In this document: piece after piece, positions 8,176-42,532 of the stretch
Layout: each line of letters starts with the position of its first letter
Position numbering within the stretch: the stretch's first letter is position 1
From: Girardia tigrina
Lineage: Eukaryota
DNA length: 49,036 nucleotides
Reading direction: 5' to 3'
NCBI GenBank assembly: GCA_001938485.1
Contig: MQRK01221720.1
Span: forward strand, 1-49,036
Notes under the pieces: generated by a model
Database searches by the model: none
The model's input: the letters and a program-made list of their open reading frames with translations, nothing else
Told to the model about the DNA's origin: nothing
Program-made: the position numbers and the translations under genes

Positions 8176-8176
<1 letters not shown>

Positions 8177-15420: not shown

Positions 15421-15428
15421 TTACGTAG

Positions 15429-18343: not shown

Positions 18344-18382
<39 letters not shown>

Positions 18383-19789: not shown

Positions 19790-20880
19790 AATTGTTGATA
19801 AATTGTTTCCAGGATTTAACGCCATCGTTGGTCTCGACTTGATCCAATGGCTGGGGATGTGCCAATTGATAAAGAAGCGGTTTTCGGCCGTGAGAAAATG
19901 GATTGCGTTGCAAATGATGATTATGATTGAGAAAAGGTCGACCAATTAAAAATTACAGAGAAGAATTTCGAGGTATCGTATCGCCGGTGTTGGAGATTGA
20001 AATGGAAATGGTCAATAGGGGAGGAGCTCAAATTTGATTATCAGTGTGGTAGCTACGATGTTAGTTAATCCGCCAAAGACAAGTTTGAGGAGTTAATGGA
20101 ACAGTGGGTTGAGAAAGGATTTTTAATATTGTGTGATGAACAGAGATTCGGGCCTCCTAAGTGCACTATTCCAATTTTTCAAGTCGTTCAGGTAAATAAA
20201 GACAAGATCAGACTCGTTTTCAATTTTCGACATATCAATAAGTACGTGAATGTGTACAGTAGCAACAGTGTAGTTTTCTGTGAGAAGCTCCGAAAGTAGA
20301 GAAAAATGTCTGGTAAGTGCGCAATGTTGGACTTTAGGGACGCGTACATGCAAGTGTTCGTCGAGGATGAGATGTTATCGTATCAAAAGAGGTTATATAA
20401 AAATAAAATGCATGCATTAACTAGAATGGATTTCGGGTTGAATGTGGGTCAAACTGTTATGACAAAAATTAAGGAGAAGGGGCTGTCAAAGAATTCGTAG
20501 ATCAATGAAGCTGCCGACGTTTATATAGAAAATATTTTTGTGGACAAAGTATAGTACAAGTAGAAAGAGTCAAAGATTATTTGATAAAATACGGATTAGT
20601 ATCGAAAGATCTGGAGAAATTTCAACAAGAAACATCCTTGATAGTGCTGGGATTGGAAGTCTTTCGAGACAATTACGGCATGCTTCGGTGGAGACGGGCA
20701 AACAAACTGCAGTTAGATCTGGACGAGGTCATATCTAGGCGAGATCTGTATTCTTTCTGTGGACAAATCATCGGAATCAACCCCGTTTGTGGCTGATTAT
20801 GTGTTGCAACGTCGTTTCTTAAACGTCAATCTACCGGAGATTCGGACAGTCCGATTTGCGAAGAGTTGAAGATTCTAATT
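19790..20880 (+). mobile_element. pol remnant (protease C-terminus and RT) of the same retrotransposon group as 10102-14009
   Basis: IVGLDLIQWLG, WKW, VVQVNKDKIRLVFNFR..N, CEKLRK, LDFRDAYMQV, LTRMDFGLNV, LGL...LRWRR. Confidence 0.82.
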
Positions 20881-21033
20881 GGTTGAAATTAAATCTTAAC
20901 GTTTTTAAAAAAAACACCAATTAAATTAATATACTAATATTTTAAATTACATTAAAAATTAAATATTACATTCGAAAATTATTTTAAATCTTTTTACTTT
21001 AAAATTAAATTATTTTTAATTAGTAAGAAACAA

Positions 21034-21310
21034 TGAAACTATCAATCAGCCATCTGGGTAGAAGAGACGCAATCCAAAACAATATAAAACATGCACAATA
21101 TACAACAACAAACAATTCAAAACAAGGTTTCTGCCAGTAGCTAACGGATCACATCGTAACAATGAGTTATTTTGTGAAGCAATTTTTTCCTGGCTTCTTG
21201 AGCCTCAATTTGGGCCCAGTCGTGGTCATGATCGAGTGGTCTTGGATCCATTTCGATTCTCTGTCTTGCATGTACTTCGGTAGTATTTTGTTTTAACACA
21301 TCCCCCATAT
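21034..21310 (-). mobile_element. Possible LTR fragment with PPT
   Basis: Minus strand GGGGGA then TGTG...TTTCA over a GC-richer block. No partner seen. Confidence 0.3.
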
Positions 21311-21685
21311 GAGATACTATTTTATCAAATATTTACTGTAAAGGAATCCAAAGTTTTGTCAATTTTTTGACAATTTCAAAAGATGTAACTCAAAATTGTT
21401 ATTTGTACGTAAGATACACTAAAATATTCATATATGCACGTGAGATTACATTCGGTTTAATAAAAAAGGTTTACAAATGTTTGGGATTACACAAAGTATC
21501 ATCTTTTATTAAACTGTACAGAAAATATAGACACTTTCATTTTGTTCATATTTTGAAACAATTTAGATGATAAAAGTTGTCGAAAGACCTTTTTTACTAA
21601 TGTTTGTTGTAATGTCGAAAGGAAATTTTATTTATTTATGAACATAACATATCAAATAAAAAGATAAAAATGTATATATTTGCAG

Positions 21686-22256
21686 ATAGGTAAACATTGG
21701 CTTGCCGGCCTTATAAAACATAACAGGGCTCTCTGTGCTTTCTTCTCTCCGACAGTCAATTGTTATCGCCGATTTCGAGTAGCTTTTTGGGCACCCAATA
21801 AATCATCGTGGAATTATGAGGATAGGTTAGTTGCTTACAATGTCAAAATATCAAAAGAAAATCCGACAAGAAACTTCATTGAAAACCGACTTCCTGGTTC
21901 GGCTTGTAATATTTATCTTGCAGTAGCAGCGATGATTGTCGCCGGTATGGACGGTCTAAAGAACAAAATTAAATTGGGTGAACCTGGAAATCTTCCTCAC
22001 AGTGACTTATTGCCAACATCGCTATCTGAAGCTTTAGATGCTCTGAAAGAAGACGAAGTGATGGTGAAAGAACTGGGAGAGAAATTCGTAGATTGGTTTA
22101 TTAAAGTAAGAATTCTATTTATTGCTGCAATAAAAAGTTATAAAATATTTCAAGATCAAACGAGAGACCGATGTTGAAGTCTTGAAGGATGTTAATATTG
22201 ACATTCAAACGGATGAAGGTTTGATGAAGGAGCGCATGAAATATTTCGATTTGTAG
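21686..22256 (+). CDS. Glutamine synthetase type I-family protein, exons 6-7
   Basis: Exon 21686-22105 carries PTVNCYRRF, WAP, EDR, IENRLPGSACNIYLA and LPTSLSEALDAL. A 49-nt intron precedes exon 22155-22256, which ends ERMKYFDL*. AATAAA at 22403. Total CDS is 1332 nt (443 aa). Confidence 0.92.
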
Positions 22257-22416
22257 CTAAAGTTGAACATTGATTATCTTTTGCAATTTAAAGACATTGA
22301 ACTCGGTAGAGGTTCTGCAAACTGTCTTAATGGATTCTTTTTAATATCCTGTTTCATAAATGTTTGTTAAATAGAAAATTCAATTTTATGTGCTGAGAAA
22401 TGAATAAAGATACATT

Positions 22417-22472
22417 CAAGGCCGGATTATCCATTGTGTCAACTGTGCCTTGGCATAGGGCCCCATGGACCC
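22417..22472 (+). mobile_element. Short DNA-transposon terminus (hAT-like) into which the Polinton inserted
   Basis: CAAGGCCGGATTA...GGCATAGGGCCCC resembles common hAT termini. It stops exactly at the Polinton end. Confidence 0.35.
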
Positions 22473-22847
22473 AGTAGTAGTTTAATATTATGCCATATAG
22501 CTCATGACCCCAAGAATTCAAGAAAAAAAAATAAAAAAAAATATTAGAAATAGAGAAATTAGAAAATAGAGAAAAAATAGAGAATTAGAGGATTTGAGCT
22601 CAGGAAAAAAAATATATTAAATTTGACCAAAATGAAAGTTGAAACTTTTTAAAAAAAAATTCAAGAAAAAAAATAATATTTAGAGAAATTAGAAAATAGA
22701 GAAAAAATAGAGAATTAGAGGATTTTAGCTCAGGGAAAAAAATATTAAATTTGACCAAAATCAAAGTTGAAACTTCTTGTGTGAAATTAGGGAAATTTGA
22801 ATTCTTGGGGTAGTGTTTAAAATTTTTAACACAGATGCAAGAGATAA
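22473..22847 (+). repeat. Putative left terminal (TIR) region with a ~130-bp tandem duplication and a 15-bp inverted repeat
   Basis: Copies at about 22515-22647 and 22658-22775. ACCCCAAGAATTCAA (22507-22521) pairs with TTGAATTCTTGGGGT (22797-22811). The right TIR is absent, so the extent is inferred. Confidence 0.65.
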
Positions 22848-22872
22848 CAAAAAGCTATTCCGAAGAATAGCT
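22848..22872 (-). terminator. Hairpin AGCTATTC-TTCG-GAATAGCT plus T tract, terminator-like
   Basis: Perfect 8-bp stem with a cUUCGg loop followed by TTTT on the minus strand, downstream of the leftward gene block. An identical 23-bp core occurs at 34684-34706. Function is inferred. Confidence 0.45.
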
Positions 22873-22982
22873 AATGGTTATTTTTTTTATAGTATCTATG
22901 AGAAATTAAAAATTATAATTATTTATAAGACTAACAAATTAATAAAAAAAACATTAGATTATTTATAGCCATTTAAATTTTT

Positions 22983-23249
22983 TTATTCAGAATCATTTTC
23001 ATTATTCGGGATATATTCAGGATCGGAATTATCATTAGAAGAGGAATAATTATTCGGGATATATTCAGGATCGGAATTACTATTATTATTTTCAGTATTC
23101 GGTAAATATTCATTATCAGAATTAACAGCTTTATAAACTTTTTCAAAGTTCGATTTTACATGATGTTTTTTACTTTCCAAATGTCTCTGTTTATTTTGTA
23201 TTAATCCTTTAAAATTGCAGACATTACAAATAAATTTTTCTTTCTCCAT
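22983..23249 (-). CDS. Polinton small zinc-finger protein with repeated acidic tail
   Basis: CNVC...RHLESKKH C2H2-type motif, then NSDNEYLPN and two NSDPEYIPNN repeats. Confidence 0.6.
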   Translation of the reverse strand: MEKEKFICNVCNFKGLIQNKQRHLESKKHHVKSNFEKVYKAVNSDNEYLPNTENNNSNSDPEYIPNNYSSSNDNSDPEYIPNNENDSE

Positions 23250-23302
23250 TTTTTTTTATTTTTATTTTTATAAAAAAAGAAAATAAAAAAAACCTTCGGT
23301 AA

Positions 23303-23938
23303 TCACAATTTCTCTAATAATATTTTTAATTTTTCCAAATGATCATTTGTAATTAAAGTATTCGTTTTATCTTCTCTTTTTTGACCGTCATTTAATTTTC
23401 CAATATTTATTTTACACTTTTCCAAAATATCTTTACTCATTTTTAACTCGTCATCAGTTATCAAATTATCACTNNNNNNNNNNTTATGAAACATAAATAA
23501 TTCATCATTAGTCTTTTCTAATGTTCGTAAATAATTTCGATATTTTTTCAATTTTTTCAAAGTTATTAAATTAGAGCCATTATCTCCAATATTCGATAAA
23601 ACCCCCAATCCGGCAAAAGCAGCAGTTAATGGAATTGTTAAAGCTCCCAAAGTTGAAATGGAAACAACAATTATCGCTCCAACAGATCCAACGAGAGTTA
23701 ATACCTCATTACAATATTTTACAGTTACAGCAATTCGTTTCCATCTCTTATGTAATTTTTGATAATGGGCAATATGCTCACTTAAATATTCCAAATCTTT
23801 CTTAAAATACTGAATATGTAAAGTATTCAATTCTTTTTTATAACTTTCGGGAGTTTCCTCTTTTTGTTTGTATTTTAACATAAAATCCTCCAACTCTTTT
23901 TCCGGATATAAATTAATATTTTCTTCATCGTCACCCAT
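23303..23938 (-). CDS. Polinton predicted membrane protein (hydrophobic hairpin)
   Basis: 211-aa ORF with the hydrophobic stretch VLTLVGSVGAIIVVSISTLGALTIPLTAAFAGLGVL flanked by charged helices; contains a short N gap. Confidence 0.7.
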   Translation of the reverse strand: MGDDEENINLYPEKELEDFMLKYKQKEETPESYKKELNTLHIQYFKKDLEYLSEHIAHYQKLHKRWKRIAVTVKYCNEVLTLVGSVGAIIVVSISTLGALTIPLTAAFAGLGVLSNIGDNGSNLITLKKLKKYRNYLRTLEKTNDELFMFHXXXXSDNLITDDELKMSKDILEKCKINIGKLNDGQKREDKTNTLITNDHLEKLKILLEKL

Positions 23939-23986
23939 TTTTTACAAAAGTATTTATATATATTTTTTTTTATATTTTCTATATTT

Positions 23987-25084
23987 TCACTTTAAATTAT
24001 AATAATAAAAAAATATAAATCTTGTAAAAAGAACAGTATCTTCACCCGATTTATTCTTAATAACATAATATTTTCTATTTCCAAATTCACAATTCCCAAA
24101 AATTGANNNNNNNNNNNNNNNNNNNNNNNNNNNNNNNNNNNNNNNNNNNNNNNNNNNNNNNNNNNNNNNNNNNNNNNNNNNNNNNNNNNNNNNNNNNNNN
24201 NNNNNNNNNNNNNNNNNNNNNNNNNNNNNNNNNNNNNNNNNNNNNNNNNNNNNNNNNNNNNNNNNNNNNNNNNNNNNNNNNNNNNNNNNNNNNNNNNNNN
24301 NNNNNNNNNNNNNNNNNNNNNNNNNNNNNNNNNNNNNNNNNNNNAATATCTCATTATCTTTTATTCTATTAAATAATAAACACAAATTTTGAAGACTAAG
24401 ATTAAATAATATATCTTGAATATTATATTTTTTTAATGTTGCATCATCAACTTCTTCTGGTTTCATAATCTCATTTTCTTTAGGGATATGGAAATTATAC
24501 CGTCTCGAATTTTCTGCTAATGTAACTAAAGATGAATGGATTTTTCGTTTTTGACTTACTAATAATTTGACTTCTTTGCTATAATTGAAAACATAATTAA
24601 TTTTTAAATTCATATCCCAAATTGGTTTTAAAATTGTTAGACAATCAATTTTTTCATCTAATCTTTCAATTTCTTTTGAACTTACATCTTTCTTGATATT
24701 CGCCTCTATTTTCATGGATTTAATATTTTCAATTTGTTTCTTCATTTCATCTTGATATTTATTAAATTGTTCCACCATTGAATTAATCGTAAGTTTCAAA
24801 TTTATAATACTTTTCTCGACATCCATATTCCGAATCATAATTTTATCCTCAACTTTCAAAGAATTCACAGGATCGTCACCCCGCTCATTCACAAATATCT
24901 TTTCTAAGTTTTTATTATTCACCTCTATAGTTTTATTTATTTTTTCTGTATTCACATATCTCCTATCCGATTCTGATAATATTATCCGATTATTTGCTTG
25001 AATTTTTTCAAATATTTTTTCTTCTCGCATTCCACCAATCTGCATCACCATTCCTAATTTATTCACAGGAATTTAATTATTCAT
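23987..25084 (-). CDS. Polinton coiled-coil protein (possible fibre-like), with an assembly gap
   Basis: Long ORF with heptad-like segments. The likely ATG at 25084 is followed by an in-frame TAA at codon 4. N run at about 24107-24344. Confidence 0.5.
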
Positions 25085-25123
25085 TTTTTTATTCTTTTTC
25101 AAAGTAAAAAAAAATATTTTAAA

Positions 25124-25591
25124 TTATAATAAACTCTCCGGCCATAAACAATCTAACATTTCCTCAATTATATCATCAAACTTTTGCGTCTTATTACCGC
25201 ATACACACTGATTCATTTTAAATAAAAAAAATAAACTCAATTGTCCACATAGTCTCGTTCAGAAGGGTTGTACTTGTCCAGAATTATATATACATTTTGG
25301 AAAATCCGGTAAAGGCTCTATTCCATACGGATCGAAGTAGAAAGATTTTGGCTCTTTCTCAAATTCTTTTTCCCCATTAAAATATCCCACCCAATGACTC
25401 CCCTGCTCATCCGAATCCTGGTAATTTATTATTGATAATTTTTTATTATTTAATTTTTCTTCAACCTCATCCGCCATCAAGACTTGTATTTCAATTTTTA
25501 ATTTTCTTGCCCAATTTTCAAGTTGAATATTTGTTGAAGTGTCAACTCCGAACATTTGCATTATATCTTGTAAGTTGTAAAATTCTATCAT
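25124..25591 (-). pseudogene. Adenain/Ulp1-like cysteine protease (Polinton PRO) with one in-frame stop
   Basis: IINY...GSHWV (His), YFDPYG (Asp), Q.Q...CGQ (Cys). TGA at 25259-25261 lies just before the catalytic Cys and the frame continues to TAA at 25124. Confidence 0.88.
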
Positions 25592-25596
25592 TTTTT

Positions 25597-26363
25597 TTAC
25601 TTTTCTATTATTTGTCTCAGTCTCAAACATAAATTAATTCGCTCATTTCGGAAATCAATTAATCGTCCTTTGTTGTCAATAATTCTCACAGTAAAATCAT
25701 TTATCTGATANNNNNNNNNNNNNNNNNNNNNNNNNNNNNNNNNNNNNNNNNNNNNNNNNNNNNNNNNNNNNNNNNNNNNNNNNNNNNNNNNNNNNNNNNN
25801 ATATTTATATCGGTTATCTGAAAAGTATATTTCGATTCAAAATTTTCCATTGGTCCTGTTAAGAGAATATTTTCCACATCAAAGAAATAGTTGAATTTGG
25901 ATTTTTCGAATCCATGCATTGAGTGNNNNNNCGATTGATTAGTGAATTCAATGGAATAATTATCCAGGATCTTGATTCGGGATTTTGATGTTTTCTCATC
26001 TGTCTCCACTTTCACTGCTCCATTCGTTAATTTAAAAATTTCCTCATTGATATCTTTATACTCCCAAGCACCCTCTTTCAAATCAAGTTTTGTATAAAAA
26101 TAAGCATCATTGTTTTCTCCCCGAATAAGCGAATTCCTAATTCCCTTGATTTCCTTTGGTAAATCTTTTCCTTTATGTAGAATAATAAAAGAATTGTTTT
26201 CCGAAGTGACATTTGCAACAGTATTATAAGTTGAAAACCAGACCAATCCGATTTCGTATTTATACCGCGGATTCAAATCCAACTGAATAGGCAGCTTAAC
26301 CTTGATTTCCGATTTCGCAGCAGAAATTGTAAACGTTGTAGAAAATCCACTAGTCTCGCCCAT
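25597..26363 (-). CDS. Minor capsid protein (penton)
   Basis: YEIGLVWFSTYNTVANV...NNSF and GAWEYKDIN. After the N gap the C-terminus reads IIDNKGRLIDFRNERINLCLRLR. Confidence 0.85.
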
Positions 26364-27543
26364 TTTTATCAAATATTTTTTTCAATAATTCCTCTTGTTT
26401 TTCTTTTGATAATAATTTTTTTCGTCTTAATTTCTTCATAATATTCAAAATATTATCATCCAAACCATCATGACCAGCCTTCTTTGCAGCGATATATTTG
26501 TACAAATATGAAAACATCGAAATCGGGTCTTTGGGTATTCCCCTACCAGCTGTTTTTCTTTGTGGAGCTGGTGATTGAATAGTATCGAAAAATGCTTCTT
26601 TTTCTTCCTCTTTCTTTTTCGCTTGTTTCTCAAACTCTTCATTCTGCTTCCGCTCTTCATCCGTGAATCCTTTTATTTCTTTTGGTCCCACTTCTCCCTT
26701 CAGTTTTCGCAAAGCATCATCACAGAAATCAACATACTTAATAGTAATATCCTGATAATTGAATCCCGCATTTTTTATCAATAATAAATATTTTTCGAAA
26801 GATTTCTCTTTTTGTTCCACAGTATATCTTTCATCGTAAATAATATCATAATTACCAATTAGAATATTATTGAATAAGTCATCAACCTCAACTCTAAAAC
26901 CCGCATTTGATTTCACAAAATACAATTTTCCTTCTATATTGGTTAAAATATATGTATGTTTGTTTAATTCCATATATTGATATCCCTGTGCATGCTTTCC
27001 AAATTTCGGAATCAAAGTTGTCTTAAGTCCAAAATTATCTTTATATTGTGTTTGCTCAAATAACTCAATGTATGGTTGTGCGCGATGAGATATGAATACT
27101 GTTCCCAATTTCTGTGCCAATTGCTCTAAATATTTTTTTGCTTCAGCCTGATGACTGGTAATATATTCCTTATCTTGGGGATATTTCTCGGTCATTTCCT
27201 GCATTATCGGAGTTAATTCTTGTTGGATTAATAAATATTCCTGTTGATACTGATCAAAAAAAGATTTGGATTTTATATTATCATAATTCTTTATATCGAC
27301 TTCGAGAAATCGTTTGAGATCATTTTCCAATTTAATGACTTTGGTTTTTAGAGCTGAGATTCTGTCTGTGATGGGGCCTTGCATTCCAGTTAATAAAGGT
27401 TGAAACATTTTTGACATTGACGTTTGAAAATCCATAGCACCAGTCCGGTATTCCCGCTCTTGGTCATTATACTGTTGAAATGCTCTAACTTTTTCTCTTA
27501 ATGAATTCTGTAAATAATTAAGATATTTTTGATGGTCATTCAT
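26350..27543 (-). CDS. Conserved Polinton PZ-like (putative core) protein
   Basis: N-terminal SKMFQPL and C-terminal GRG.PKDP......L...IAAKKAGH....NI..I..KL pattern typical of the Maverick ORF next to penton. Confidence 0.7.
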   Translation of the reverse strand: MNDHQKYLNYLQNSLREKVRAFQQYNDQEREYRTGAMDFQTSMSKMFQPLLTGMQGPITDRISALKTKVIKLENDLKRFLEVDIKNYDNIKSKSFFDQYQQEYLLIQQELTPIMQEMTEKYPQDKEYITSHQAEAKKYLEQLAQKLGTVFISHRAQPYIELFEQTQYKDNFGLKTTLIPKFGKHAQGYQYMELNKHTYILTNIEGKLYFVKSNAGFRVEVDDLFNNILIGNYDIIYDERYTVEQKEKSFEKYLLLIKNAGFNYQDITIKYVDFCDDALRKLKGEVGPKEIKGFTDEERKQNEEFEKQAKKKEEEKEAFFDTIQSPAPQRKTAGRGIPKDPISMFSYLYKYIAAKKAGHDGLDDNILNIMKKLRRKKLLSKEKQEELLKKIFDKNGRD

Positions 27544-27886
27544 TTTTAATATTTAAATCAGCTAGCCGTTTAACAATTCGTTCCTCTTCTCGTTCCTGTT
27601 TTGCTAATAATTTTGCCAGGATTTCTTGCTCTAGTAATTTCAATTTTAATCTTTTTTCCTCAGCTCGAGCCCTGATCTCGTCTTCCGATTTCACAGGTTT
27701 CTGTTGTCGATCGTGAAATTGATAACCCTCGTTTCTGCGAACGTATAATCTTTTTTTAATTTTTTCATTATATTTCTGTCGAGCGGCTTTCTCTCTTCGT
27801 AATTGTTCTGGGAGAGTCTGCATAAAATTATACAAATCATTGACATTAACAGGTTTATTCTTTTTTATTTTTTTATTAGTATTCAT
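27536..27886 (-). CDS. Polinton basic, helical hypothetical protein
   Basis: 116-aa K/R/E-rich ORF overlapping both neighbours by a few bases. Confidence 0.6.
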   Translation of the reverse strand: MNTNKKIKKNKPVNVNDLYNFMQTLPEQLRREKAARQKYNEKIKKRLYVRRNEGYQFHDRQQKPVKSEDEIRARAEEKRLKLKLLEQEILAKLLAKQEREEERIVKRLADLNIKNE

Positions 27887-28536
27887 TTTCTATTATTCCC
27901 GGAATTCGGATCCCAAGGTTCCAAGTACAAACCTTTCCCGGTGAATCGACATTTCAATTTCCCACCCAATTTCCGATTCCGAGCTAATAATTTATTTTTT
28001 GATTTTTTATCTTTATTTGTTTGATTAATCTGTTCACGAAAAAAATTCTGAATTCCTTTACCAGTATAATCGTCCCAATACAACCCTTCTCCTTCGTCTT
28101 CATCATCTTCATAATCTTCATTTTCATAATCTTCATCATCGTAATCATCTTCATCTTCTATTCCTTTTCCTTTTTTTCCTTTTTTCCGCAATCCCGATCC
28201 TGATTTTCCTAAAGAACTTCGAATAGCTAATTCAGCAATAGGTAATATAGCTTTCATTATAGGACTTAATTCTCCGCCTTTTGATTTTTTCTTTAATCCC
28301 GATCCTGTTGGCGTGGCTGGCGTGGCTGCTTTGGCTGCAATTTCTTGTTGCAATTTCTGGTTTTGTAATCTAATACCCTCGGTTTCAGCCTGATTTTTCT
28401 GTGCTTCTTTTGCTTTTTGNNNNGTTGTTGCAACTCCGGCTGCTGCGCCGCCTAAACCGCCAACAACAGTCATAATTAATGGAATTAATGCCGCCAGTGG
28501 TAATAATCCGCCAGAATGGTATTTATCCCCAATCAT
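27883..28536 (-). CDS. pX/pVII-like core protein precursor
   Basis: GGLLPLAALIPLI...GG motif resembling adenovirus pX, repeated GxG sites (TGSG, SGSG, KGKG, EGEG, TGKG) and terminal GLYLEPW. The 5' part (to about 28668) appears disrupted. Confidence 0.7.
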   Translation of the reverse strand: MIGDKYHSGGLLPLAALIPLIMTVVGGLGGAAAGVATXXQKAKEAQKNQAETEGIRLQNQKLQQEIAAKAATPATPTGSGLKKKSKGGELSPIMKAILPIAELAIRSSLGKSGSGLRKKGKKGKGIEDEDDYDDEDYENEDYEDDEDEGEGLYWDDYTGKGIQNFFREQINQTNKDKKSKNKLLARNRKLGGKLKCRFTGKGLYLEPWDPNSGNNRK

Positions 28537-28689
28537 TCCTCCTTTCTCTTCTATTTTTTAAATTTTTTTCAACATTTCCCGATTCAAATACATTTCTTTT
28601 CCTCCATATCTTATTAAACCAGGAGTTTGAGTATCTATCAATTTTCGTATTTTTAACGAGTCCGTCATTTTTGTATTTTTACTTTATTT

Positions 28690-30037
28690 TCACTTTCCCT
28701 TGAATGGTTCGATTATCGTGATTTGCGATCCGCGAATAGACATTTCCACCTTGGCTTCCTGGAGAATTACGCAATACATTTTTGGAATAAACGTTTCAGA
28801 TTTTCGAATTAGCAGTGTAACGGAGACATTGTTAAGATCCAAAGTTTTATCAATATCCGAGGTATCGAAACAGACAATTGGATAAAAAGATTTCCAATCT
28901 TTCAGCGATAGCATTGGGGCCTTATCTTGGAATCCGCGGCAGCATTGCACGTAACTATTATATAATTCATAAAAATTCCGATTTTCTGTATTATTCACCA
29001 TTGGCTGGATTGGGTAATAGGTATTATTTAATTTTAATTGAATCGAGAATTCTTTAGGATCCATTTTGAACAGGGAATTATTTTTATTATATCCCGAATT
29101 ATCAGTTTTCATTCCGACGAAAATATATCTTGGTAAATAATTCAGATATGCCGCATTCCACGAGAAAACCTTTTAGGCCGTCAAATCGTATTCCACTGAG
29201 ATTCGCTGGAGAAAATCCACATAAATCGGTTTATCTTTCAGATTCAGCCGATCCACCAATCGGGCATAATAATCAATATTCAACTCCAGTTGATTCATGT
29301 GCAGTTCCAAGGAATTTATTGTAATAGTTCCTTTGGTCCCATTTTTCGCGAAAAAAATATTTGCATTATCCATTTTTCGAACCAATGTGAATTCCAGAAG
29401 AATATTATAAATAACTCGGTTATAATTTTGCAAAAATCCAAAGAGATGTTTCAGCGAGAAAGAGCCTCTGAATTTCATTAAATTGTATTGATTTTTCCGG
29501 ATTTCAAATCCAATATTTTGATATCGCAAACCGACTGGAACTGCAGCTACTGCTGGCGGACCAGCGGCAGCATCTATTTTTTCTCCATAAACCATTTCAT
29601 TGTGATCAGGGATAAAATCGGTTATTTCTCCACAGGGTAAATAGTTTCTATCTTTAGAGACATATAATAACATATCTGATACAACTCCAGGATTATTTAT
29701 CGATTCAACGACATAATTTCCTAATTTTAATGACATACATGTAAATAATTTCGGGAAGAAATTAGTTTCTAAAACGGTATCACATTCTGTGATTGTGATA
29801 TCATAAACCAGTTTTGCATTACAAATATCTATCGGATCAGTGGTTTGTGATAATTGATAAACTATAGTTCCATTGCTATTCAAATATGCCATTGATCCGG
29901 ATGTTGGCGCCAGTTTTATTACATCGGATTTTTTTCAAAACATGAGAAAATTCTTTATTGTTATCGAAATCTAAAATTCCCAAGAAAATCATTCCTGAGG
30001 TTAATTGATTTATTGGTTTTTCGAAGCTTGTTTCCAT
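28690..30037 (-). pseudogene. Major capsid protein (double jelly-roll, PY) with one frameshift and one in-frame stop
   Basis: LNSNG.I, NFFPKLF...L.LG....ESINNPG, SLKHLFGF...Y.RVI, PRYIFV, LNNTYYP and YPIVCFD. TAA at 29173-29175 is in frame with ORF 28690-29112. A frameshift in an A run near 29935 separates the ATG at 30037. Confidence 0.9.
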
Positions 30038-30048
30038 TTTTAAAATAA

Positions 30049-31384
30049 TTAATTATTTTGTACTTTGCCAATTCGCGTAATCTGTAAATCCGCTTCATAG
30101 AATCGTCCAAATAATTCTTTATCTTTTTCAGGATTTTTCAACTTATAAGTTACAGGATATTCATGATCCAAAACTTGAGAAATTTCATAAATTTCTCGAG
30201 TCCATTTCGGTTCATATCCTTTTTTAAAAGTTTGTAATTTCCGTTCCTGGTTTTTATTACGAGTACCTTCAGGTTTATCTCCGCTAAATATTTTTGTTTC
30301 GAATACCCGAACTCGATCTCCGACTTTGAATTTTGGTTTAACTTTTTTCTTGGGTAATTTTTGAGGTTTTGGAAGCGGAATAACATTATTAAACATTACA
30401 TCGTGCGGTGATACGCGGATAGAGCTATGAATTCTATTATTATAATCAGATAATATTTTTTCCATTTCTAGCTCAGTGATAACTTTCTCACCTTTCTCAG
30501 TAAATAGTTTATAGATTTCAGATTTTAATGTTCTATTAAATCTTTCAATAAAAACAGGTTTTTCCTTTACGAAATACATTTTAATATTATTCGCTTTCAG
30601 GAATTTTTTCTCAAATTCTTTGTTTGTGAATTCAGCTCCCTGATCAACCCATAAATATTTTGGAATTGGTAATTCAGTATTTGTTAATTCCGTTAAGATT
30701 GAAATGAAAGCTTGGATTATCGATTCAGATTTCTTATTGGGAAGAAAACGGAAAAAAACCATATCGTGAATAAATATCTATAACTGTTAAAATGTAATAT
30801 TTCCAAATTTTACGAGTTTGTCCTGATTTTGTTATTGTTGTTGCAACGACACCATTTTCAGTATCCTCTTTCGCGTCAACAGTTATCAAGTCTGCAGACC
30901 AAATCCGATTCAATGATTTAACATTTATTCGAAGAAAGTCTTTATTTTTTTTATGTGCTTTATGTAATTCTTTAGCTAATTGTTTATTATTTTTATTATC
31001 TATTTCCCCACCAAATGCGATTTTACCTTTCATAATTGTTTTTATGAGAAATCTTTCGAATTTTTGACGTAAAGTTAGATCTTGTAATTCATTAATATAG
31101 TGAATAAGATTTACATCCGCCAAGTGCCGATCTCGTAAATCTTCAGATCTGTAAGCGATATCATGTTTGTAGCATGCCTGATCCAATCCATCTACTGGTT
31201 TATTATCTTCACCGATTGGCTGATCTTGATCATCTAATCGAATATCCAATCTTGTTAGAGGACCGCAATAATTTTTACCCGGCAAATGCAGTTCACCGTA
31301 TTTCGTTTTCATAAATCCAGGAATATATTTCGCAAAATTTCCCATAGATTGTTGAACGTCACCTCCTTTTTTAATAATCATCAT
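30049..31384 (-). CDS. Phospholipase A2-retroviral-type integrase fusion, split by a 1-nt frameshift near 30755
   Basis: PLA2: ELHLPGKNYCGP...LDQACYKHDIAY...D. Integrase start in the same ORF: LAKELHK, IWSADL, YILTVIDIYSRY. It continues as LWVDQGAEF, ERFNRTLK, YNNRIHSSI and KGYEPKWTREIY. Confidence 0.9.
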
Positions 31385-31567
31385 TTTTGGAAGTAATTTA
31401 TTTTTAAATAAAAAATTTCCAATACTATCAAGCTATTTCTGTAGACATGATATTAAAGGAATATTGTTAGATAGGAAAGAACAATAATATTTTTAATGTG
31501 TATTCCATGATATGTTATTAACTATTTCAATATTAGTAAAAGAAAATCACAAAGGTTTTATTTTTTA

Positions 31568-32476
31568 TTACTCGCTTTCATCATTTTCAATATCTGAGTG
31601 CATGTTCGGATTTTCGATTGTTATTTCTTCTTCAGTAAATATATTTTTATAAATTTTTTTCTCAGTACGATCGAAATAAATATAATTATATTTTTTCCGC
31701 TGCCATTGATGAATGATTTCCCGCTGATATTCGTTAATATTTTCGCTATTGGGTAAGAGATCAGAAAAGATATAAGATTTATCTCTTTTTCCTAATTCGA
31801 AAAAAATGAATCCAGTGGAATTATTCCGGATAGAATGCTTATCCAATCCGTAGAAAGTTTGGGAAATATATATCGTATTACAATTATTATGTCTTCCCCT
31901 GGTAAAATATGATTTCATTATTTTCTGATCTGACAGATTCACCACGTCATCGAAAATAATGAGATTCTTTGCATCTTTTGGTAGCGAGTCGCAAGCGACG
32001 ATTTGATTGGGATCACTTGAAAATAGGACTGATATCGCTTTTTCAGGATCTCTAATCAAGTATTTTGATTTATCAATATTATTTTTATTATTAATAAATC
32101 TTTTATACGCATAAACGAGATATTCTGGAGGAGGAATATAATCTTTATCAGAATCATTACCTAATTCCTCTTTTATCATTTCCAGTAACATTTTCTGTTT
32201 ATCGAAAATATCGCGTATTCCGGTTTTTGTTAAAGATGATCCATCTTCAAAACGAAAACCACTTGCAATAACTTTCAATTCTGGTTGATCAATAGTTGTG
32301 GAATAAAATATTAAATTATTAAAATCGAGAAATCCGTCTTCTAGTAACATTTTAGTTAATAAAACATTTTTACCACAACCAGATTCACCAACTATTAACA
32401 GTCTGAAATTCTTTGGAGATAATTTGTTTTTAAACTTTGACTCGTACATTGTTAAAATATTCAGTTTTTCCTTCAT
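31568..32476 (-). CDS. A32/FtsK-like genome-packaging ATPase
   Basis: Walker A GESGCGKN, Walker B LIIFDD and YFTRGRHNN...YISQ. Probable ATG at 32476. Confidence 0.92.
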   Translation of the reverse strand: MKEKLNILTMYESKFKNKLSPKNFRLLIVGESGCGKNVLLTKMLLEDGFLDFNNLIFYSTTIDQPELKVIASGFRFEDGSSLTKTGIRDIFDKQKMLLEMIKEELGNDSDKDYIPPPEYLVYAYKRFINNKNNIDKSKYLIRDPEKAISVLFSSDPNQIVACDSLPKDAKNLIIFDDVVNLSDQKIMKSYFTRGRHNNCNTIYISQTFYGLDKHSIRNNSTGFIFFELGKRDKSYIFSDLLPNSENINEYQREIIHQWQRKKYNYIYFDRTEKKIYKNIFTEEEITIENPNMHSDIENDESE

Positions 32477-32672
32477 TTTTAAGTTGGAAAAGTATTTTCC
32501 AAGCTTAAACATACAGAGGCTTCGCCGACCCTTTCGGTATTTTTTTTGTGTCAAAATTTCGAAAATGCAAAAAAAATATTTTTATAAAAAATGTCTGATA
32601 AAAAAAAAATTTCCAACGATTCCGACCAAGAAAAAAAATAAAAAAAATATTAGAAAAATTATTAGAAAAAAA

Positions 32673-33443
32673 ATGAGAACCATGAGATCGGATATCTTCA
32701 CCAAGTCCGATGATGACGAGAAAAATGTGAAATCGACTGGACGCGATTCTGAAACGGAATCAGCAAGTATACCTATAACTCCAAGTCCGAGAGTTCAAAC
32801 TCCTGAAGCTGAATCTGATACCGATTCACCCAAATCAGCCGGATTTGAATCGGCTGATGAAAATAAATTAATAAATGAATTCAAATGCTTATATGAATCC
32901 AAAGATTGGCGTCGGAATCCCAATTTCAATGTTTGCAATTACTGCAAACATGAATTTGATAAATTGGAAAATTATAATACAACAATGCATTATTCTCATA
33001 ATGCATTAGAAAGAAAAATGGAAAGGAAATTAAAAAATAAAGATATACAGATTAAATATCTTAAAGGGGATAACAAATATTTAAAAAGAAGATTTAGAGA
33101 AAAAAATGCCAATATTACTATTAATAATACTATTAATAATACTATTAATATCGGAAAAAAGGACGATGATGAAGATTCCGATGAATCGGAATATGTTAGT
33201 AAAGATTTTCGCCCATCATTGTTTATGAAACCTAAGGAATTATATTTAAGACAAAATATTACTAGTATGCAACAAGAATTATGGTGTTATATTAATGGTA
33301 AAGATTACAGAGCTGAAAGAGCTGAAAGTAATTTTGAAGAAAAACCTAAAAAGGTAAAAACTGGTGGCCGAAAACCAGGGACACCAAATAAAAAGACTTT
33401 GGAAAAAATAAAGGCCATAGAAAATAATAATAATAATATTTAA
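32673..33443 (+). CDS. Polinton hypothetical protein (possible Zn finger, coiled coil, basic tail)
   Basis: ORF from MRTMRSD with an acidic Ser-rich N-terminus, CNYC...H..H and KTGGRKPGTPNK. Confidence 0.6.
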   Translation: MRTMRSDIFTKSDDDEKNVKSTGRDSETESASIPITPSPRVQTPEAESDTDSPKSAGFESADENKLINEFKCLYESKDWRRNPNFNVCNYCKHEFDKLENYNTTMHYSHNALERKMERKLKNKDIQIKYLKGDNKYLKRRFREKNANITINNTINNTINIGKKDDDEDSDESEYVSKDFRPSLFMKPKELYLRQNITSMQQELWCYINGKDYRAERAESNFEEKPKKVKTGGRKPGTPNKKTLEKIKAIENNNNNI

Positions 33444-33632
33444 AATATATAATATCTTTCATTAAATAACCATATTATTTTTATTTTTATTTATAATATG
33501 CCTATACTTTTTAAAAATAAAAATTATATTGGATAGGCTAAAAATAACCCCTTTTTTCATGTATTTTACACTATATTTTATTAACAACTTTAGTTTTCCG
33601 TGGTTTTCCTTAGTTTTCCGTTGTTTAACTTA

Positions 33633-34143
33633 TTAATCCGGTAGATCATTATTTATATTATCAATTTCTTGTAAAGTGGAAATAAATTCACATTCTTCTG
33701 GTGACCAATTATACATTTTATTTAACACTTTTGAAAGTATAGATTTTCGATTATTAAATTTTGGGATAGCTACAGATTTATCCAATATTTCATTTTGTTG
33801 TTTTATCAAATCCTCATATTTCTTTTGTTTGTCTTTATCATCGTTTCCAATTTCTTTCAAGCACATATCTATTTGATTATTTTTTGTATCTATCACATCA
33901 TTTAAATACAGAATCTTTTCATCTTTTTTTTTCCACTTCTTCTGCCAATTCAGCGCAATAATCTACAGCGGTAAACCATTTACTTTTTATATCTACGACC
34001 TCTCCTTTCAATTGAAATATTTGAATGATTTGTTTTCGTCCTTGTTTCGCTTGAGATTTCAAATTCATCGTATCAAATTCTTTTTCAGCATTTGATATTA
34101 ACTTTGATATATTTTTTTTATTTTTTATTTTCGCAAGTTCCAT
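33633..34143 (-). CDS. Polinton coiled-coil hypothetical protein, frameshifted in an A9 run
   Basis: ORFs 33919-34143 and 33633-33896 join as EVEKK-DEKILYLNDVIDTK if one A is removed. Confidence 0.5.
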
Positions 34144-34642
34144 TTTCTTTAAGATAATTTGAATTTCTTTCTTCTAATATTTTCAACATTCTTTCACGAT
34201 TTTCATTTTTAATTTTTTCAGATTCGGATTCCTGATCGGATTCCGATTCATGTGCGGAATATAGTTTTCCTTTTCCAATTTCAACTTCTTTTTTCTGTTT
34301 ATATTTCGGTTTTGAAATCGGTTTAGGTTCTTTTTCTTTATCCATTATTTTCTTTCCTTTTTTCGAAGAAGAAGCAGATGGAACACTATGACGATTCAAA
34401 GATGGAATCCCCATATCTTTTAACATTCTCGCGAATTTGTACTCACTGCTTCCGATTTTCTTACAAGCGTCTTTATGGTTGAGACCTAAGTTTTTATATT
34501 TTTTATATTCTTCTATCATATTTTCGTTTGCTGTATATTCATTATTTATTATCCTTGCGCGAGAATATTCTTTAAGCAATTCAAAGTTGAAATCCTCCAT
34601 TCTTTTCATATTTGCAATATCAAGCGAATTTTTTTTAGTCAT
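34118..34642 (-). CDS. Polinton putative helix-turn-helix protein
   Basis: LNHKDACKKIGSSEYKFARMLKDMG fits an HTH pattern; the tail is basic then acidic. Confidence 0.55.
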   Translation of the reverse strand: MTKKNSLDIANMKRMEDFNFELLKEYSRARIINNEYTANENMIEEYKKYKNLGLNHKDACKKIGSSEYKFARMLKDMGIPSLNRHSVPSASSSKKGKKIMDKEKEPKPISKPKYKQKKEVEIGKGKLYSAHESESDQESESEKIKNENRERMLKILEERNSNYLKENGTCENKK

Positions 34643-34683
34643 TTTTTCTTTAAAATAAAATAACATTTGAAACTATCGGGTGC

Positions 34684-34716
34684 CAAAAAGCTATTCCGAA
34701 GAATAGTTATTTTTTT
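34684..34716. promoter_or_regulatory. Second copy of the hairpin motif, in the divergent intergenic region upstream of pPolB
   Basis: CAAAAAGCTATTCCGAAGAATAG is identical to 22848-22870 and is followed by a T tract. Confidence 0.45.
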
Positions 34717-34755
34717 ATAAATTTTCAAAATACAAAAAAAATTTGAAATAAAAAA

Positions 34756-36030
34756 ATGACTGATAAAAATAAAAACAAATCTCATGCCAAGAAAAAAATT
34801 AGAAGAGCTGTTGTAAGTTTGGATCCAAGTGTGGATCTACCAATAGATTTTGATATTAATAGAGAAGTAGAATCTCCAATTACAGTAGAACCGCCAGAAG
34901 CAGAAACGAACCCTAATTGGGATAATCCATTATATTGCCGATTATGTGATAAATTATTTCACAATAAAGCTGCTCTAATATCGCATAAAAAAGTAACGCA
35001 CATATCCGAAAAGAAACTAATAATATTAGTATAAAAATTGAAAATGTGGAAATAGTTCATAATTTAAAAGAAAATATTATTGATCTCGAATATTATTTCG
35101 AAGAAGATGGGAAAAAGGTATTATTCATTGAAGATATTACTCGATTAATTGATGTCTACGATAATCTGGATGAACGGTTGAAATTTCCAGTTCTTATTGA
35201 TGTATCTTTGAAAGTTGAATTTATTAAAGGGGAAGAAATAATTGAAAAGGAAATCAGTTTACCGGCAAGAAGACTTCTGACGCAAAGACGAATGAACCGC
35301 CACGTGAGGCATCTGCCGGGAAAATTAAATGCAAAAATACGGGAATGCGAATTACGGGGATCTGGATTTAGCATTCACAAAATTGTTAAAATAAATATTA
35401 GAATATCTCCCTATAAAAATTCCACTTCAGGTATTTTTCTTGATCCACCGGATCGGTTGAAAAATTCCCATAGTATTATAAACATTCGAAATAAGGATGA
35501 CAAATGTTTTCTATGGTGCTTTGTCGCGCATACGATGCGAGATCGATTAAAGGAAATAATAAATAAATCACGAGTTTCCAATTATACCAGAGAATACGAA
35601 TCCAAGAAAAAGTATTTCGATGATATTTTCAAAGACGATATCAATTTCCCAACGAAATTGGAAGATATAAAACTTTTCAATAAAAGAGTCCCAGAAGAAA
35701 ATAAAGTCAATGTTTTTGAAGTGGATTATCAGGGAAATGTATTACCGGTTTTAATCTCTCATCTCGATGTTAAAGGATTCAATATTTTATTTTATTCCCA
35801 GAAAATCAATGACGAGATAAAAACTCATTTTGTTTATTGTAGAAATATCAGAAGATTTCTAGCCTGCAAATATTTTCTTTGTCTTAATTGTATGTGTCAA
35901 TTTCAATTGGAATCGACTTACCAAAAACATGTGGATATTTGTCAAAATAATAAAGCGATTAAAGCTTCTTTCCCGAAAGACGAATATTATCAATTTAATA
36001 AATTCCATTATAAAGTTAGAGTCCCTTTGA
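34756..36030 (+). pseudogene. Protein-primed DNA polymerase B, N-terminal portion only
   Basis: C2H2 finger CRLC...HKKVTH, frameshift near 35010, then GSGF, IINIRNKDDKCFLWC, HFVY and CLNC...H...C. It stops at KVRVP, just before the expected exonuclease I motif. Confidence 0.88.
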
Positions 36031-36551
36031 GTTAGAGAACCATTGAATACGATAATTATAAAGCAAATAATAAAGCTATTCGATTTCTAATTAGTAAATC
36101 TTTATTGATTTATTTTACTTTGACAATTTTACTAATTACGGAGTTTCCGTAATTAGTTTAAACAAAAACTAACAAAACTTAATTTATAAGAATAAATATA
36201 TATTTATATATATATACATTTTCTCATATAAATATATATATCATTTAATTTTTTTTTATTTTTTTTAAATAAATTTAATGATAAAAAATAAAATTTTTCT
36301 TTAATGAAATTTAATTTAAAAAAAACGAAAACCGAACAGTCACTTTTGCCACACAAATTCTTTTTGATATTTTTTTTCATTTTTTTGTGCCATTTTGGCA
36401 ATTTTTTTTCGATTGAATATATATTTAATAAACAAATAAGCATTCGAAATATGCAAAATAATCTCAACATTCATAAAATTGAAGACCGAATTCGACATTT
36501 GAGTGTACAAACAAATAACATTGCCATTTCATTTTATGCAACTATACAGTT

Positions 36552-37435
36552 TCATTTCTCAATAGAGCAAAGAGCGTTATTGATTCTCTGAGATATTTTA
36601 ACCACTCTGTCCAAGATAATAGGCTTGTCGACTTCGGTAATGAACTCACAACACCGATTCATAAACCGATCAGGGTGCCAATTTACTTGTAATGATTTAA
36701 GTTCTTTACGAATACCATCGCTCTAGTCGATCAGCCAGTCAGAAATTAAGGAAGAGATGTCCGAGTCCGGTAGCCAAGGAATGTCTTTAATGGTGATTGT
36801 ATCTGAACTGTTTAGTATTCGAATTTTCGATTCGAATAACAATCATTGACGCTTGAATTCTTCATAAATAGAACTAGAGAAATAGAAATAGAGTATTTTG
36901 CCATTGCTCGAGCGTGCTTTTCTCAGAATTGTCGATCCATATCGGCGTCATATTGTTCGATTTTATTAACTCCAATTTTCTTGGAAGACTGATGGTAACT
37001 GGGAGGATCACTTTTATTATAATATTCTCGTACCATTGTCTAGGTTCATCGATCATAGCTCTCCTATTCTTCATATTGATTGAAATAATCGTTTTCATAT
37101 TTGCCCCATTTCTGATTGTACTCGGCTTCTGCCTCTTATTCAATCTCATCGATCCACGCCTCTTCATTTTGATACTTTTTTTAAATTCTGAATTTTAATC
37201 AAATCCGCTATTTTATTCAGTAATTCAAGAAGAGATTCACCATGTTTATTTTTTTTGCTGATTTAACTGAAACATTTCTAGCGACAAACAAATTCCAGTA
37301 TTGAATAGCCTCATTTAACAATCGTTTCTTAATGCACGACTTCAATGCTAAATGAAGTGCGGTGTCGTGTTCTCTGTCTCCAATCAAACAATCGTATTTA
37401 TTTTCTAAAGTCGAATTCAATTGCTCGAATATCAA
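36552..37435 (-). pseudogene. NFKBIL1-like (ankyrin plus DIPW...WHPDRF domain) pseudogene
   Basis: DTALHLA ankyrin-like motif and C-terminal KDIPWLP...LQVNWHPDRF...ILDRV..ISQRIN, with several in-frame stops. Confidence 0.7.
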
Positions 37436-37601
37436 TTTATGAGGGAACGGATGTCAAACAACCCCCCACAAAATTGAAAAAAAATTAAAATGCTTACATT
37501 TTCCGGATCATTTTCTCTTCTGGAATTGGCATCGCATCTTCAACCGTTTCTGAAATAGATAGAATTAAAAATTTATCTAAATTAATTTGAAAAATTACAT
37601 T

Positions 37602-38065: not shown

Positions 38066-38627
38066 ATTAGAATTTTCATTAGATATGAATAATGAATAAA
38101 GAACATGTGGGTAAAGGCGAATTAAAACCCGATAAATTATCTATTGTTTGCGAATATTTTATAGGTATTTTAATGATTTTTCCGACTGCTTTACGTGCTT
38201 ATTCCTTCGTAATTTATTCATTATTCATTTTTTATTGATTAATTATTTTTATTCCAATTTCTTTATTTCTTTGCAAATTCTTTACGGATTTTCTCGCTTT
38301 TTACTTTATTTTGTTCTCAAAATTATTCTAGAATTTATGATAATTTTGTCGGATTTTTTATCTGATTAATTCAGCACGTTATTTCGATTTTATGGATTAT
38401 TGATCCGTAATCATCCGCTTTTCTACTGGTATCGGTACTTTTTAAATCACTTTGCAAATTTTTAACACTTTTTGTTACCTATTTATTATAATTCTTATGT
38501 TTTATATGAACTTTTCTCGTTTTTTGTTATTCATTTTCGTTTTCGATTATTTAGTTTTAGTCTATTGCTCTTATTTTATTAAATTTTCTTTGATTTTTGA
38601 TTCTATCTCAACAAAATCAATATAAAA

Positions 38628-42175: not shown

Positions 42176-42532
42176 AATGTGTCAAATTTCATATATAAAT
42201 GCTTACAAATTATGCATGTATCCGTATATGTATTGAACTTGTGTGTTTGGATATTTTCTATCCCTTCTATATAATCTGAAATATTTAATTGCTTTGATCT
42301 ATTAGAATGACCCTCAGATCCATTGTCATTGGTTAGATTATATTTAATCTACTTATTTACGTATATTTATTTTCAAGAATCTAACCAAATGCCTTTGTGA
42401 CATTTATAATCGGGAATCAGTGTAAATATTTATAATAAACTAAACAGAATTCTTCTCGATTATTTCGCAAAATTAATGGGCAAATAATCCGATTGAAATT
42501 CATCTAAAACCGTTTAATATTTTTAATAAATT

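What the first reader, a model, noticed from the sequence alone, without database searches (positions are those of the whole stretch)
22473..36030. Endogenous adintovirus-like Maverick with a complete virion morphogenesis module
Seen: MCP, penton, adenain, packaging ATPase, PZ-like and pX-like core proteins, integrase and pPolB, plus about seven uncharacterised ORFs, behind an AGTAGTAG terminus. Established: Polintons have AG...CT ends, 6-bp TSDs and this gene set. Inference: a virus-like lineage in this host, inserted about 215 bp downstream of the GS stop codon, with expected TSD GGACCC.
Basis: partly seen in the sequence, partly recalled or inferred. Interest (0 to 1): 0.75.

Follow-up and report, generated by a model that had tools for sequence, protein, structure and literature searches.

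The report
Decayed Maverick with phospholipase-integrase fusion
This is a real but broken, one-ended copy of a known kind of virus-like transposon (Maverick/Polinton, also called adintovirus); its one unusual feature is a membrane-breaching phospholipase joined to the integrase, a layout that related elements share and that I did not find described.

Summary
The gene inventory is confirmed. A Maverick/Polinton (adintovirus-type) remnant runs from AGTAGTAG at 22473 to about 36035. The major capsid protein (MCP) folds as a double jelly roll (pLDDT 92; top solved matches mavirus MCP and PBCV-1 Vp54).

It is complete only as a gene list. MCP has a stop and a frame change, the protease a stop, the integrase a frame change, and the ATPase an atypical Walker A. 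pPolB stops just before its exonuclease. No right terminus or second GGACCC lies downstream. Two nonsense codons suggest recent decay (about 0.3% divergence), though some breaks may be assembly errors.

Its nearest relatives are unnamed metagenomic proteins (MCP 80%, then 40% identity), so the lineage looks undescribed, but decayed Mavericks are the norm.

The fusion is intact in relative L001 and in one frame (one stop) in L002. In all three, the only two Gly-Gly pairs flank the PLA2, matching the cleavage motif of this protease class. This suggests a virion-packaged, protease-processed entry-plus-integration polyprotein (inferred, untested). Verdict: new variant of a known kind, moderate interest.

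The parts
22467..22472 (+). GGACCC, host flank; the would-be left half of a 6-bp TSD. No partner downstream.
22473..22480 (+). Left terminus motif AGTAGTAG, matching the published (AGT)2 Maverick end
   Evidence: PMC8097293 passage
22503..22815 (.). Subterminal cassette: 15-nt inverted arms (22507-22521 / 22797-22811), right arm ending in TAGTG (CACTA-like, recalled), enclosing two 130-nt tandem copies at about 89% identity. Either a nested MITE or part of the TIR.
22848..22870 (+). 23-nt hairpin-forming motif with an exact second copy at 34684-34706, between divergent genes; role unknown
22983..23249 (-). 88-aa ORF with a C2H2/U1-like zinc-finger motif (by eye) and an acidic repeat tail
23303..23938 (-). 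211-aa two-helix membrane protein, short N-run inside. ApoL-like or SLATT-like by weak leads only.
   Evidence: Atlas 0.82 to ApoL clusters and 0.78 to a cluster 58% viral; SLATT_1 E 0.089
23987..25051 (-). Unassigned coiled-coil-rich ORF, interrupted by an N-run
   Evidence: no significant hit
25124..25630 (-). Adenain-type cysteine protease with an in-frame stop at 25259-25261, just before the catalytic-Cys motif
   Evidence: motif order recalled; no library hit
25597..26363 (-). Penton / minor capsid protein, interrupted by two N-runs
   Evidence: 28% and 44% to the L001 ORF; L001 ORF scores 0.97 to Preplasmiviricota clusters; own fold inconclusive
26350..27543 (-). PZ-like protein, 397 aa, open frame
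   Evidence: C-terminal part 40% to the syntenic L001 ORF, E 3e-8; PZ label recalled
27536..27886 (-). 116-aa basic ORF, unassigned
27883..28536 (-). pX/cupiennin-like core protein standing alone (not fused to PLA2), rich in GG and GxG motifs
   Evidence: (L001 homologue Adeno_PX E 9e-4)
28690..30037 (-). Double jelly-roll major capsid protein; in-frame stop 29173-29175; frame change near 29930-29955
30049..31384 (-). PLA2 (parvovirus VP1 type) fused to rve integrase; frame change near 30737-30755; GG pairs at residues 7-8 and 125-126 flank the PLA2
31568..32512 (-). A32/FtsK packaging ATPase, open frame, atypical Walker A
32565..33443 (+). 292-aa unassigned ORF with one CxxC
33633..34143 (-). 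Two overlapping small frames, probably one ORF with a frame change in a 9-nt run (inferred; no homologue)
34118..34666 (-). 182-aa unassigned ORF
34756..35034 (+). C2H2 zinc-finger ORF; probably the start of the pPolB gene in another frame (inferred)
34989..36035 (+). N-terminal (terminal protein/vOTU-side) part of pPolB, ending just before exonuclease motif I; marks the right truncation
   Evidence: 27% over 227 aa to P0200, an EndoVII-bearing pPolB

Best explanation
A Maverick/Polinton (adintovirus-type, class Polintoviricetes) integrated into the tail-to-tail gap between a GS gene and a downstream host gene. It then lost its right part (polymerase core, right TIR, TSD partner and some flank) and picked up a few disabling changes. 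This copy cannot replicate, integrate or build virions by itself.

SHOWN: gene inventory, DJR fold, the breaks, the missing right end, and the PLA2-integrase fusion in this lineage. ESTABLISHED for the family: rve-mediated integration with a 6-bp TSD, protein-primed replication, ATPase packaging, protease maturation. INFERRED for the parent lineage (about 0.4 on its own): the PLA2-integrase protein is packaged in the particle and cut by the adenain-type protease at the two GG sites. The released PLA2 then helps breach the endosome, as parvovirus VP1 PLA2 does, while the integrase travels with the genome. In described Alpha adintoviruses PLA2 rides on a pX core protein (PLA2X); here pX stands alone and the integrase carries the PLA2.
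For: MCP is a DJR: PF21738 E 7e-15, pLDDT 92 and pTM 0.91, top PDB matches mavirus MCP, PBCV-1 Vp54 and Sputnik. L001 carries the same gene set in open frames. The three homologue-anchored breaks align without extra sequence, so they are not introns. pPolB ends where P0200 enters ExoI. No right terminus or TSD partner, and no N-run at the right junction. Two nonsense codons in 10,110 coding nt imply about 0.3% substitutions per site (95% range 0.04-1.2%). Fusion: PLA2 and the first integrase Asp motif share one window ORF. L001 has a single 441-aa zf-U1 + PLA2 + rve ORF. L002 has both in one frame with one stop. In all three the only two GG pairs flank the PLA2 and are invariant where the flanks are only 3 of 12 invariant. 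The mavirus protease cuts GG|X, and mavirus virions hold the integrase and a cleaved hydrolase (PMC6048507, passages).
Against: Both homologue-anchored frame changes sit in 7-nt homopolymer runs, which occur in 74 of 1220 background windows. The element also holds five N-runs. Some breaks may therefore be sequencing or assembly error. No genome or reads could be examined, so the deletion at the right junction is not verified. The protease identity has no library support, and the penton fold is inconclusive. The GG argument rests on three homologous sequences 43-62% identical; four invariant columns at the 39% background rate would occur about 2% of the time, and glycines are often conserved for structural reasons. 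The P4 residues at most sites do not fit the strict adenovirus consensus. The window and L001 PLA2 calcium loops differ from the GPG seen in L002 and L003, so lipase activity is not assured.
Confidence: 0.75

Rival explanations
1. The locus holds an intact or nearly intact provirus. The frame changes, gaps and missing right half are errors of a fragmented assembly that collapsed a multi-copy element.
For: Five N-runs inside the element. The penton N-run is shorter than the roughly 70 residues missing against L001. Both anchored frame changes lie in 7-nt homopolymers. Most ORFs are still open and cover 90% of the element.
Against: Two in-frame stops and an atypical Walker A are substitution-type changes. 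The right junction is contiguous sequence without Ns. The two best-holding runs keep only 0.58 and 0.54 of sampled words, which says nothing about intactness.
Confidence: 0.15
2. A non-autonomous or host-retained derivative: the capsid/ATPase cluster or a cargo gene is kept for a function, either mobilised in trans or domesticated next to GS.
For: PZ-like, pX-like, ATPase and several cargo ORFs are still open.
Against: With one terminus it cannot be mobilised as a unit. MCP and protease are interrupted. At about 0.3% divergence most ORFs would stay open with no selection at all.
Confidence: 0.05
3. A chimeric join of a free virus, or of another organism's element, to host sequence.
For: Relatives are known only from metagenomic contigs. 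There is no TSD pair.
Against: The left junction is a clean terminus motif directly on host flank. GC content (about 19-36% per kb) matches the host DNA around it. The breaks suggest residence in a genome.
Confidence: 0.05

Closest known systems
Alpha-class adintoviruses / group 2 Maverick-Polintons (Starrett et al. 2021, PMC8502044, parts 1-4 of 6 read; Bellas and Sommaruga, 10.64898/2026.06.19.733378, passages)
   Same: Hexon-type DJR MCP, penton, adenain, FtsK/A32 ATPase, rve integrase and pPolB. Parvovirus-type PLA2 present (described as typical of Alpha modules and common in group 2). A SLATT-type membrane gene appears on the Hydra and Stylophora maps.
   Different: PLA2 is described as PLA2X (PLA2 plus pX) or as a separate CAP ORF. 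Here PLA2 is fused to the integrase and the pX-like protein stands alone. No named adintovirus MCP is close: the top 50 BFVD rows are at most 14% identical. This copy is truncated and disabled.
Spodoptera Sf-Mavericks 1 and 2 (PMC5803895, passages)
   Same: pPolB type with an endonuclease VII insertion (P0200, the only full-length relative found for the window's pPolB piece, carries PF02945), PLA2, integrase, ATPase and protease.
   Different: Their PLA2 is a separate ORF (CAP), and they are transcribed, apparently intact elements.
Vertebrate Mavericks (Barreat and Katzourakis 2021, PMC8097293, passages)
   Same: (AGT)2 end motif, core genes including PZ, and most copies degraded.
   Different: Different gene order. 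No TIR pair or TSD is seen here.
Unnamed metagenomic relatives L001, L002, L003, P0003-P0005
   Same: L001 has penton, PZ-like, ATPase, pX, MCP and an intact ZnF-PLA2-rve gene. L002 has PLA2 and integrase in one frame. L003 has a PLA2 start after MCP. L001 and L002 MCPs fall in one 98-supported clade of 15 rows with the window MCP.
   Different: MCP identity is only 36% for L001-L003 (80% for the fragment P0003). Gene order differs. L001-L003 carry an N-terminal zinc finger that the window ORF lacks.
Mavirus virophage (PMC6048507, passages)
   Same: DJR fold match. It is the precedent for a GG|X-cutting protease, a virion-packaged integrase and a cleaved virion hydrolase.
   Different: It is a protist virophage, MCP identity is about 9%, and its integrase and hydrolase are separate genes.

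Membership tests
Maverick/Polinton (Polintoviricetes) | rve integrase | tested here: met
   Two pieces align contiguously to the L001 integrase (rve E 6e-13); IS481/IS3 hits at E 5e-7 and 7e-5. Frame change in this copy.
Maverick/Polinton (Polintoviricetes) | Protein-primed PolB | tested here: inconclusive
   Only the N-terminal part is present (27% to P0200, pairwise E 1e-18). The Exo and Pol motifs are absent through truncation.
Maverick/Polinton (Polintoviricetes) | Double jelly-roll MCP | tested here: met
Maverick/Polinton (Polintoviricetes) | Single jelly-roll penton | tested here: inconclusive
   Homologous to a syntenic L001 ORF that scores 0.97 to Preplasmiviricota clusters. Own model pLDDT 39, best VIA Z 4.7.
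Maverick/Polinton (Polintoviricetes) | A32/FtsK packaging ATPase | tested here: met
   PF04665 E 6.5e-9; 44% to L001; atypical Walker A
Maverick/Polinton (Polintoviricetes) | Adenain-type cysteine protease | tested here: inconclusive
   His-Trp, Asp-Pro and Cys-Gly motifs in the expected order (pattern recalled). No hit in Pfam, NCBIfam, PHROGs or PDB.
Maverick/Polinton (Polintoviricetes) | Terminal inverted repeats with AG...CT ends and a 6-bp TSD | tested here: inconclusive
   The left end motif is present. The right end and TSD partner are absent in a copy cut inside pPolB, so the pair cannot be tested.
Intact ('potentially active') Maverick as defined in PMC8097293 | All core ORFs uninterrupted, TIR pair, TSD pair | tested here: not met
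Adintovirus Alpha vs Beta class | PolB and hexon clustering with the Mayetiola or Terrapene references | not testable with these tools
   No named reference sequences were retrievable. Indirectly Alpha-like: an EndoVII-type pPolB relative as in Sf-Mavericks (panel A of Fig S2) and PLA2 present.
Adintovirus PLA2X gene | PLA2 followed by a C-terminal pX-like domain | tested here: not met
   PLA2 is followed by rve; the pX-like ORF is separate.
Adintovirus integrase | C-terminal chromodomain | tested here: inconclusive
   No chromo hit for the window or L001 in Pfam at E 0.05; a conserved C-terminal extension is present.

The most novel reading that the evidence does not exclude
The window samples an undescribed lineage of animal Polintoviricetes whose integrase is made as a polyprotein with a parvovirus-type PLA2 between two conserved Gly-Gly sites. 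The protein is loaded into particles and split by the maturation protease, so membrane breach and integration are delivered 1:1. An entry enzyme physically tied to the integrase would be a genetic argument that integration in this lineage follows infection by virions and not transposition inside a cell.
Probability: 0.35. Interest if true: 0.65.

Novelty: new variant of a known kind. Interest (0 to 1): 0.4.

Why it matters
Whether Mavericks spread as infectious particles is a long-standing question; a 2026 preprint still says no virions have been observed. A decayed copy adds little to that. A conserved PLA2-integrase fusion with protease-type GG borders gives a concrete, testable link between entry and integration, and a marker gene for finding intact members of this lineage. 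The locus also shows that such elements were inserting recently next to housekeeping genes in this host.

Tried and rejected
Read depth, junction-spanning reads and free ends were not examined; no read data were obtained.

Run search: 10 of 18 rows hold some of 26400-33400. Two hold half or more (organism A, one study, possibly the source). Two hold 0.27.

IMG/VR scans with the ATPase, the MCP alignment, the PLA2 and the L001 integrase gave no loci. Prokaryote genomes and phage records gave none. A degenerate motif scan gave 12 loci, of which 0 match any of 18 element ORFs; they are unrelated phage-like contigs.

Penton AlphaFold2 on a 2-row alignment was uninformative; the weak match does not show a different fold. 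PDB sequence searches with MCP, protease, PLA2 and two unknown ORFs found nothing significant. Rfam: 0 hits. PADLOC: weak noise only.

The first tree run timed out; a FastTree was used. Of 153 MCP-like hits other than P0003, 100 of at least 380 aa were kept. None of the 30 relatives looked up had an informative name, so the tree cannot place the element among described groups.

Introns as the cause of the breaks: rejected for the three homologue-anchored breaks; not testable for the others. A degenerate right TIR after 36030: no better than shuffles. Host identity: GS relatives are 63% (unnamed) and at most 45% for named molluscan lengsin-like proteins, so only 'probably an AT-rich invertebrate' is claimed.
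Full report
OBSERVATION. The window is AT-rich eukaryotic DNA with spliceosomal introns and many transposon remains. A GS gene (PF00120; exons at 7518-7886, 21686-22108 and a last exon ending at 22256) ends 216 nt before GGACCC|AGTAGTAG. From there to about 36035, ORFs cover 12,203 of 13,563 nt. The 8-mer occurs twice in the window against 0.40 expected, and 8 of 100 shuffles reach 2, so it is weak alone. By my arithmetic about 0.005 copies are expected in the roughly 575 nt between the GS poly(A)-like signal and the first element ORF, and it matches the published (AGT)2 Maverick end (PMC8097293, passages). The window has no CTACTACT and no GGACCC downstream, and the first 30 nt have no better-than-chance inverted match downstream.

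GENES. MCP: read with X at its stop it hits Pfam DJR-like at E 7e-15. AlphaFold2 on 114 sequences gives pLDDT 92 and pTM 0.91. Foldseek's top PDB rows are mavirus MCP (E 3e-12), PBCV-1 Vp54 and Sputnik. The ATPase is Pox_A32 at E 6.5e-9. A 6.7-kb metagenomic contig, L001, one of 5 loci, carries matching penton, PZ-like, ATPase, pX-like, MCP and integrase genes in open frames. The L001 penton scores 0.97 to Preplasmiviricota clusters in the Atlas, but the window penton's own model was uninformative (pLDDT 39, best Z 4.7). The protease is assigned from recalled motifs and position only. The PZ label is recalled. The 211-aa membrane ORF has only weak ApoL (0.82) and SLATT (E 0.089) leads; SLATT genes are described in such viruses. 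The other unassigned ORFs gave no significant hit.

INTEGRITY. MCP has an in-frame stop at 29173-29175 and a frame change near 29930-29955. The protease has a stop at 25259-25261. The integrase gene changes frame near 30737-30755. The ATPase Walker A departs from the canonical form at one position kept in L001 (effect untested). The pPolB ORF has no ATG for its first 101 codons. It aligns to the N-terminal part of P0200 (27% over 227 aa), the only hit among 501 candidates, and stops where P0200 enters exonuclease motif I. By the TP-vOTU-EXO-PALM layout (10.1101/2024.03.18.585575, passages), the catalytic core is missing. About 520 nt later a host gene ends on the minus strand (NFKBIL1-like, recalled). 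Earlier AI notes on intron-bearing Mavericks prompted a check: the three anchored breaks align to homologues without extra sequence, so they are not introns. Two nonsense codons in 10,110 coding nt, where 6.2% of point changes give stops, imply about 0.3% divergence (0.04-1.2%), less than the 5-7% between the LTR pairs of two nearby retrotransposons. Against over-reading: both anchored frame changes lie in 7-nt homopolymers (background 74 of 1220 windows) and there are five N-runs, so some breaks may be assembly errors. No genome or reads were examined.

RELATIVES. A word-seeded search found 5 MCP relatives among 1333 candidates: one 80% fragment, then 27-40%. A profile search found 1786 at E<=1e-3. 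In a FastTree of 105 rows (100 of 153 hits kept at >=380 aa, plus the window, P0003 and three loci) the window MCP groups with P0003 (100) inside a 15-row clade (98) that also holds L001 and L002. Of 30 relatives looked up, none had an informative name or an NCBI/UniRef source. The top 50 BFVD rows are at most 14% identical. The lineage looks undescribed, but it could not be placed against named references. Indirect signs point to the Alpha / group 2 side: P0200 carries endonuclease VII as Sf-Maverick pPolBs do (PMC5803895, passages), those are in panel A of Starrett's Fig S2, and PLA2 is described as typical of Alpha modules and group 2.

THE FUSION. ORF 30734-31384 begins with a parvovirus-VP1-type PLA2 (PF08398, E 1e-9) with an intact His-Asp pair and runs on in frame into the integrase N-terminus. 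L001 encodes zf-U1 + PLA2 + rve as one 441-aa ORF. L002 has both in one frame with a single stop. L003 breaks off inside the PLA2. L004 and L005 do not cover the gene. So 2 of the 2 loci that span the junction have the fusion frame. In the window, L001 and L002 the only two GG pairs in the protein sit just before and just after the PLA2. Both are invariant while their flanks are 3 of 12 invariant, against 71 of 182 columns overall. The mavirus protease cuts GG|X, and mavirus virions contain the integrase and a cleaved hydrolase (PMC6048507, passages). Adomavirus core protein appears cleaved in virions (10.1101/341131, passages). Polinton lipases are proposed to aid entry (PMC4642659, passages). 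Hence the inferred mechanism: a packaged polyprotein cut at maturation into an entry lipase and an integrase. It rests on three homologous sequences and analogy.

IS THE FUSION IN PRINT? Paper searches did not show it. Nor did passages read in PMC3671162, PMC5803895, PMC11296320, PMC4642659, 10.1101/2024.03.25.586562, 10.64898/2026.06.19.733378, 10.64898/2026.10.13.758929 and 10.1101/2023.08.22.554363, or parts 1-4 of 6 of PMC8502044. These describe PLA2 as PLA2X or as a separate ORF. The Starrett supplement was cut and its slides and protein files were not seen. bioRxiv supplements were closed. Repbase and subscription papers were not searchable. The fusion may be annotated there. Earlier scan notes held no match for it.

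VERDICT. This is a recently disabled, right-truncated Maverick/adintovirus of an apparently undescribed lineage (0.75). As an endogenous element it is ordinary. The PLA2-integrase fusion makes it a new variant of a known kind. Interest 0.4; most novel reading probability 0.35, interest 0.65 if true.

Noticed in passing
window 7518-22256 (+): GS (lengsin-like, PF00120) gene whose roughly 14-kb internal stretch holds two LTR retrotransposons: repeats 10109-10223/13895-14009 at 93% and 15432-15825/19400-19789 at 95%.
   Followed up: partly
window 22416-22472: GC-rich 57-nt stretch just left of the terminus that resembles the 5' end of a hAT-type MITE (recalled). Its inverted end is not in the window, which would fit a deletion reaching into the right flank.
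   Followed up: partly
window 22503-22815: Inverted 15-nt arms with a CACTA-like right end around two 130-nt repeats, 30 nt inside the Maverick terminus; no clear TSD.
   Followed up: partly
window 22848-22870 and 34684-34706: Exact 23-nt hairpin-forming duplicate, near the left end and between divergent genes; candidate regulatory site.
   Followed up: partly
window 36131-36157: Near-perfect hairpin about 100 nt after the pPolB break; unclear whether it is element or host DNA.
   Followed up: no
window 36552-37560 (-): Host gene pieces with an ankyrin-like segment and a WHPDRF C-terminal motif, like NFKBIL1 (recalled; no library hit); tail-to-tail with GS.
   Followed up: partly
window 3396-5149 (-): Broken LINE-type element with an endonuclease-RT match (PF14529, E 8e-6).
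   Followed up: no
window 38600-40272 (+): Fragmented Tc1/IS630-like transposase (DDE_3, E 1.5e-5).
   Followed up: no
window 46020-46724 (-), with inverted arms 45887-45940 / 46821-46874: MULE-like transposase fragment (recalled) between imperfect inverted repeats.
   Followed up: no
window 41456-42171; 42521-43422; 1262-1871: 22-nt minisatellite; a 148-nt inverted-repeat MITE-like element; a 159-nt direct repeat at 99%.
   Followed up: no
L001 4586-5191 (+): Stand-alone endonuclease VII gene (phrog_1035, E 2e-14) between MCP and the PLA2-integrase gene; absent from the window element.
   Followed up: no
L002 1562-2353 (+): PLA2-integrase frame with one in-frame stop between the domains: either a decayed copy or a real split form.
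   Followed up: partly
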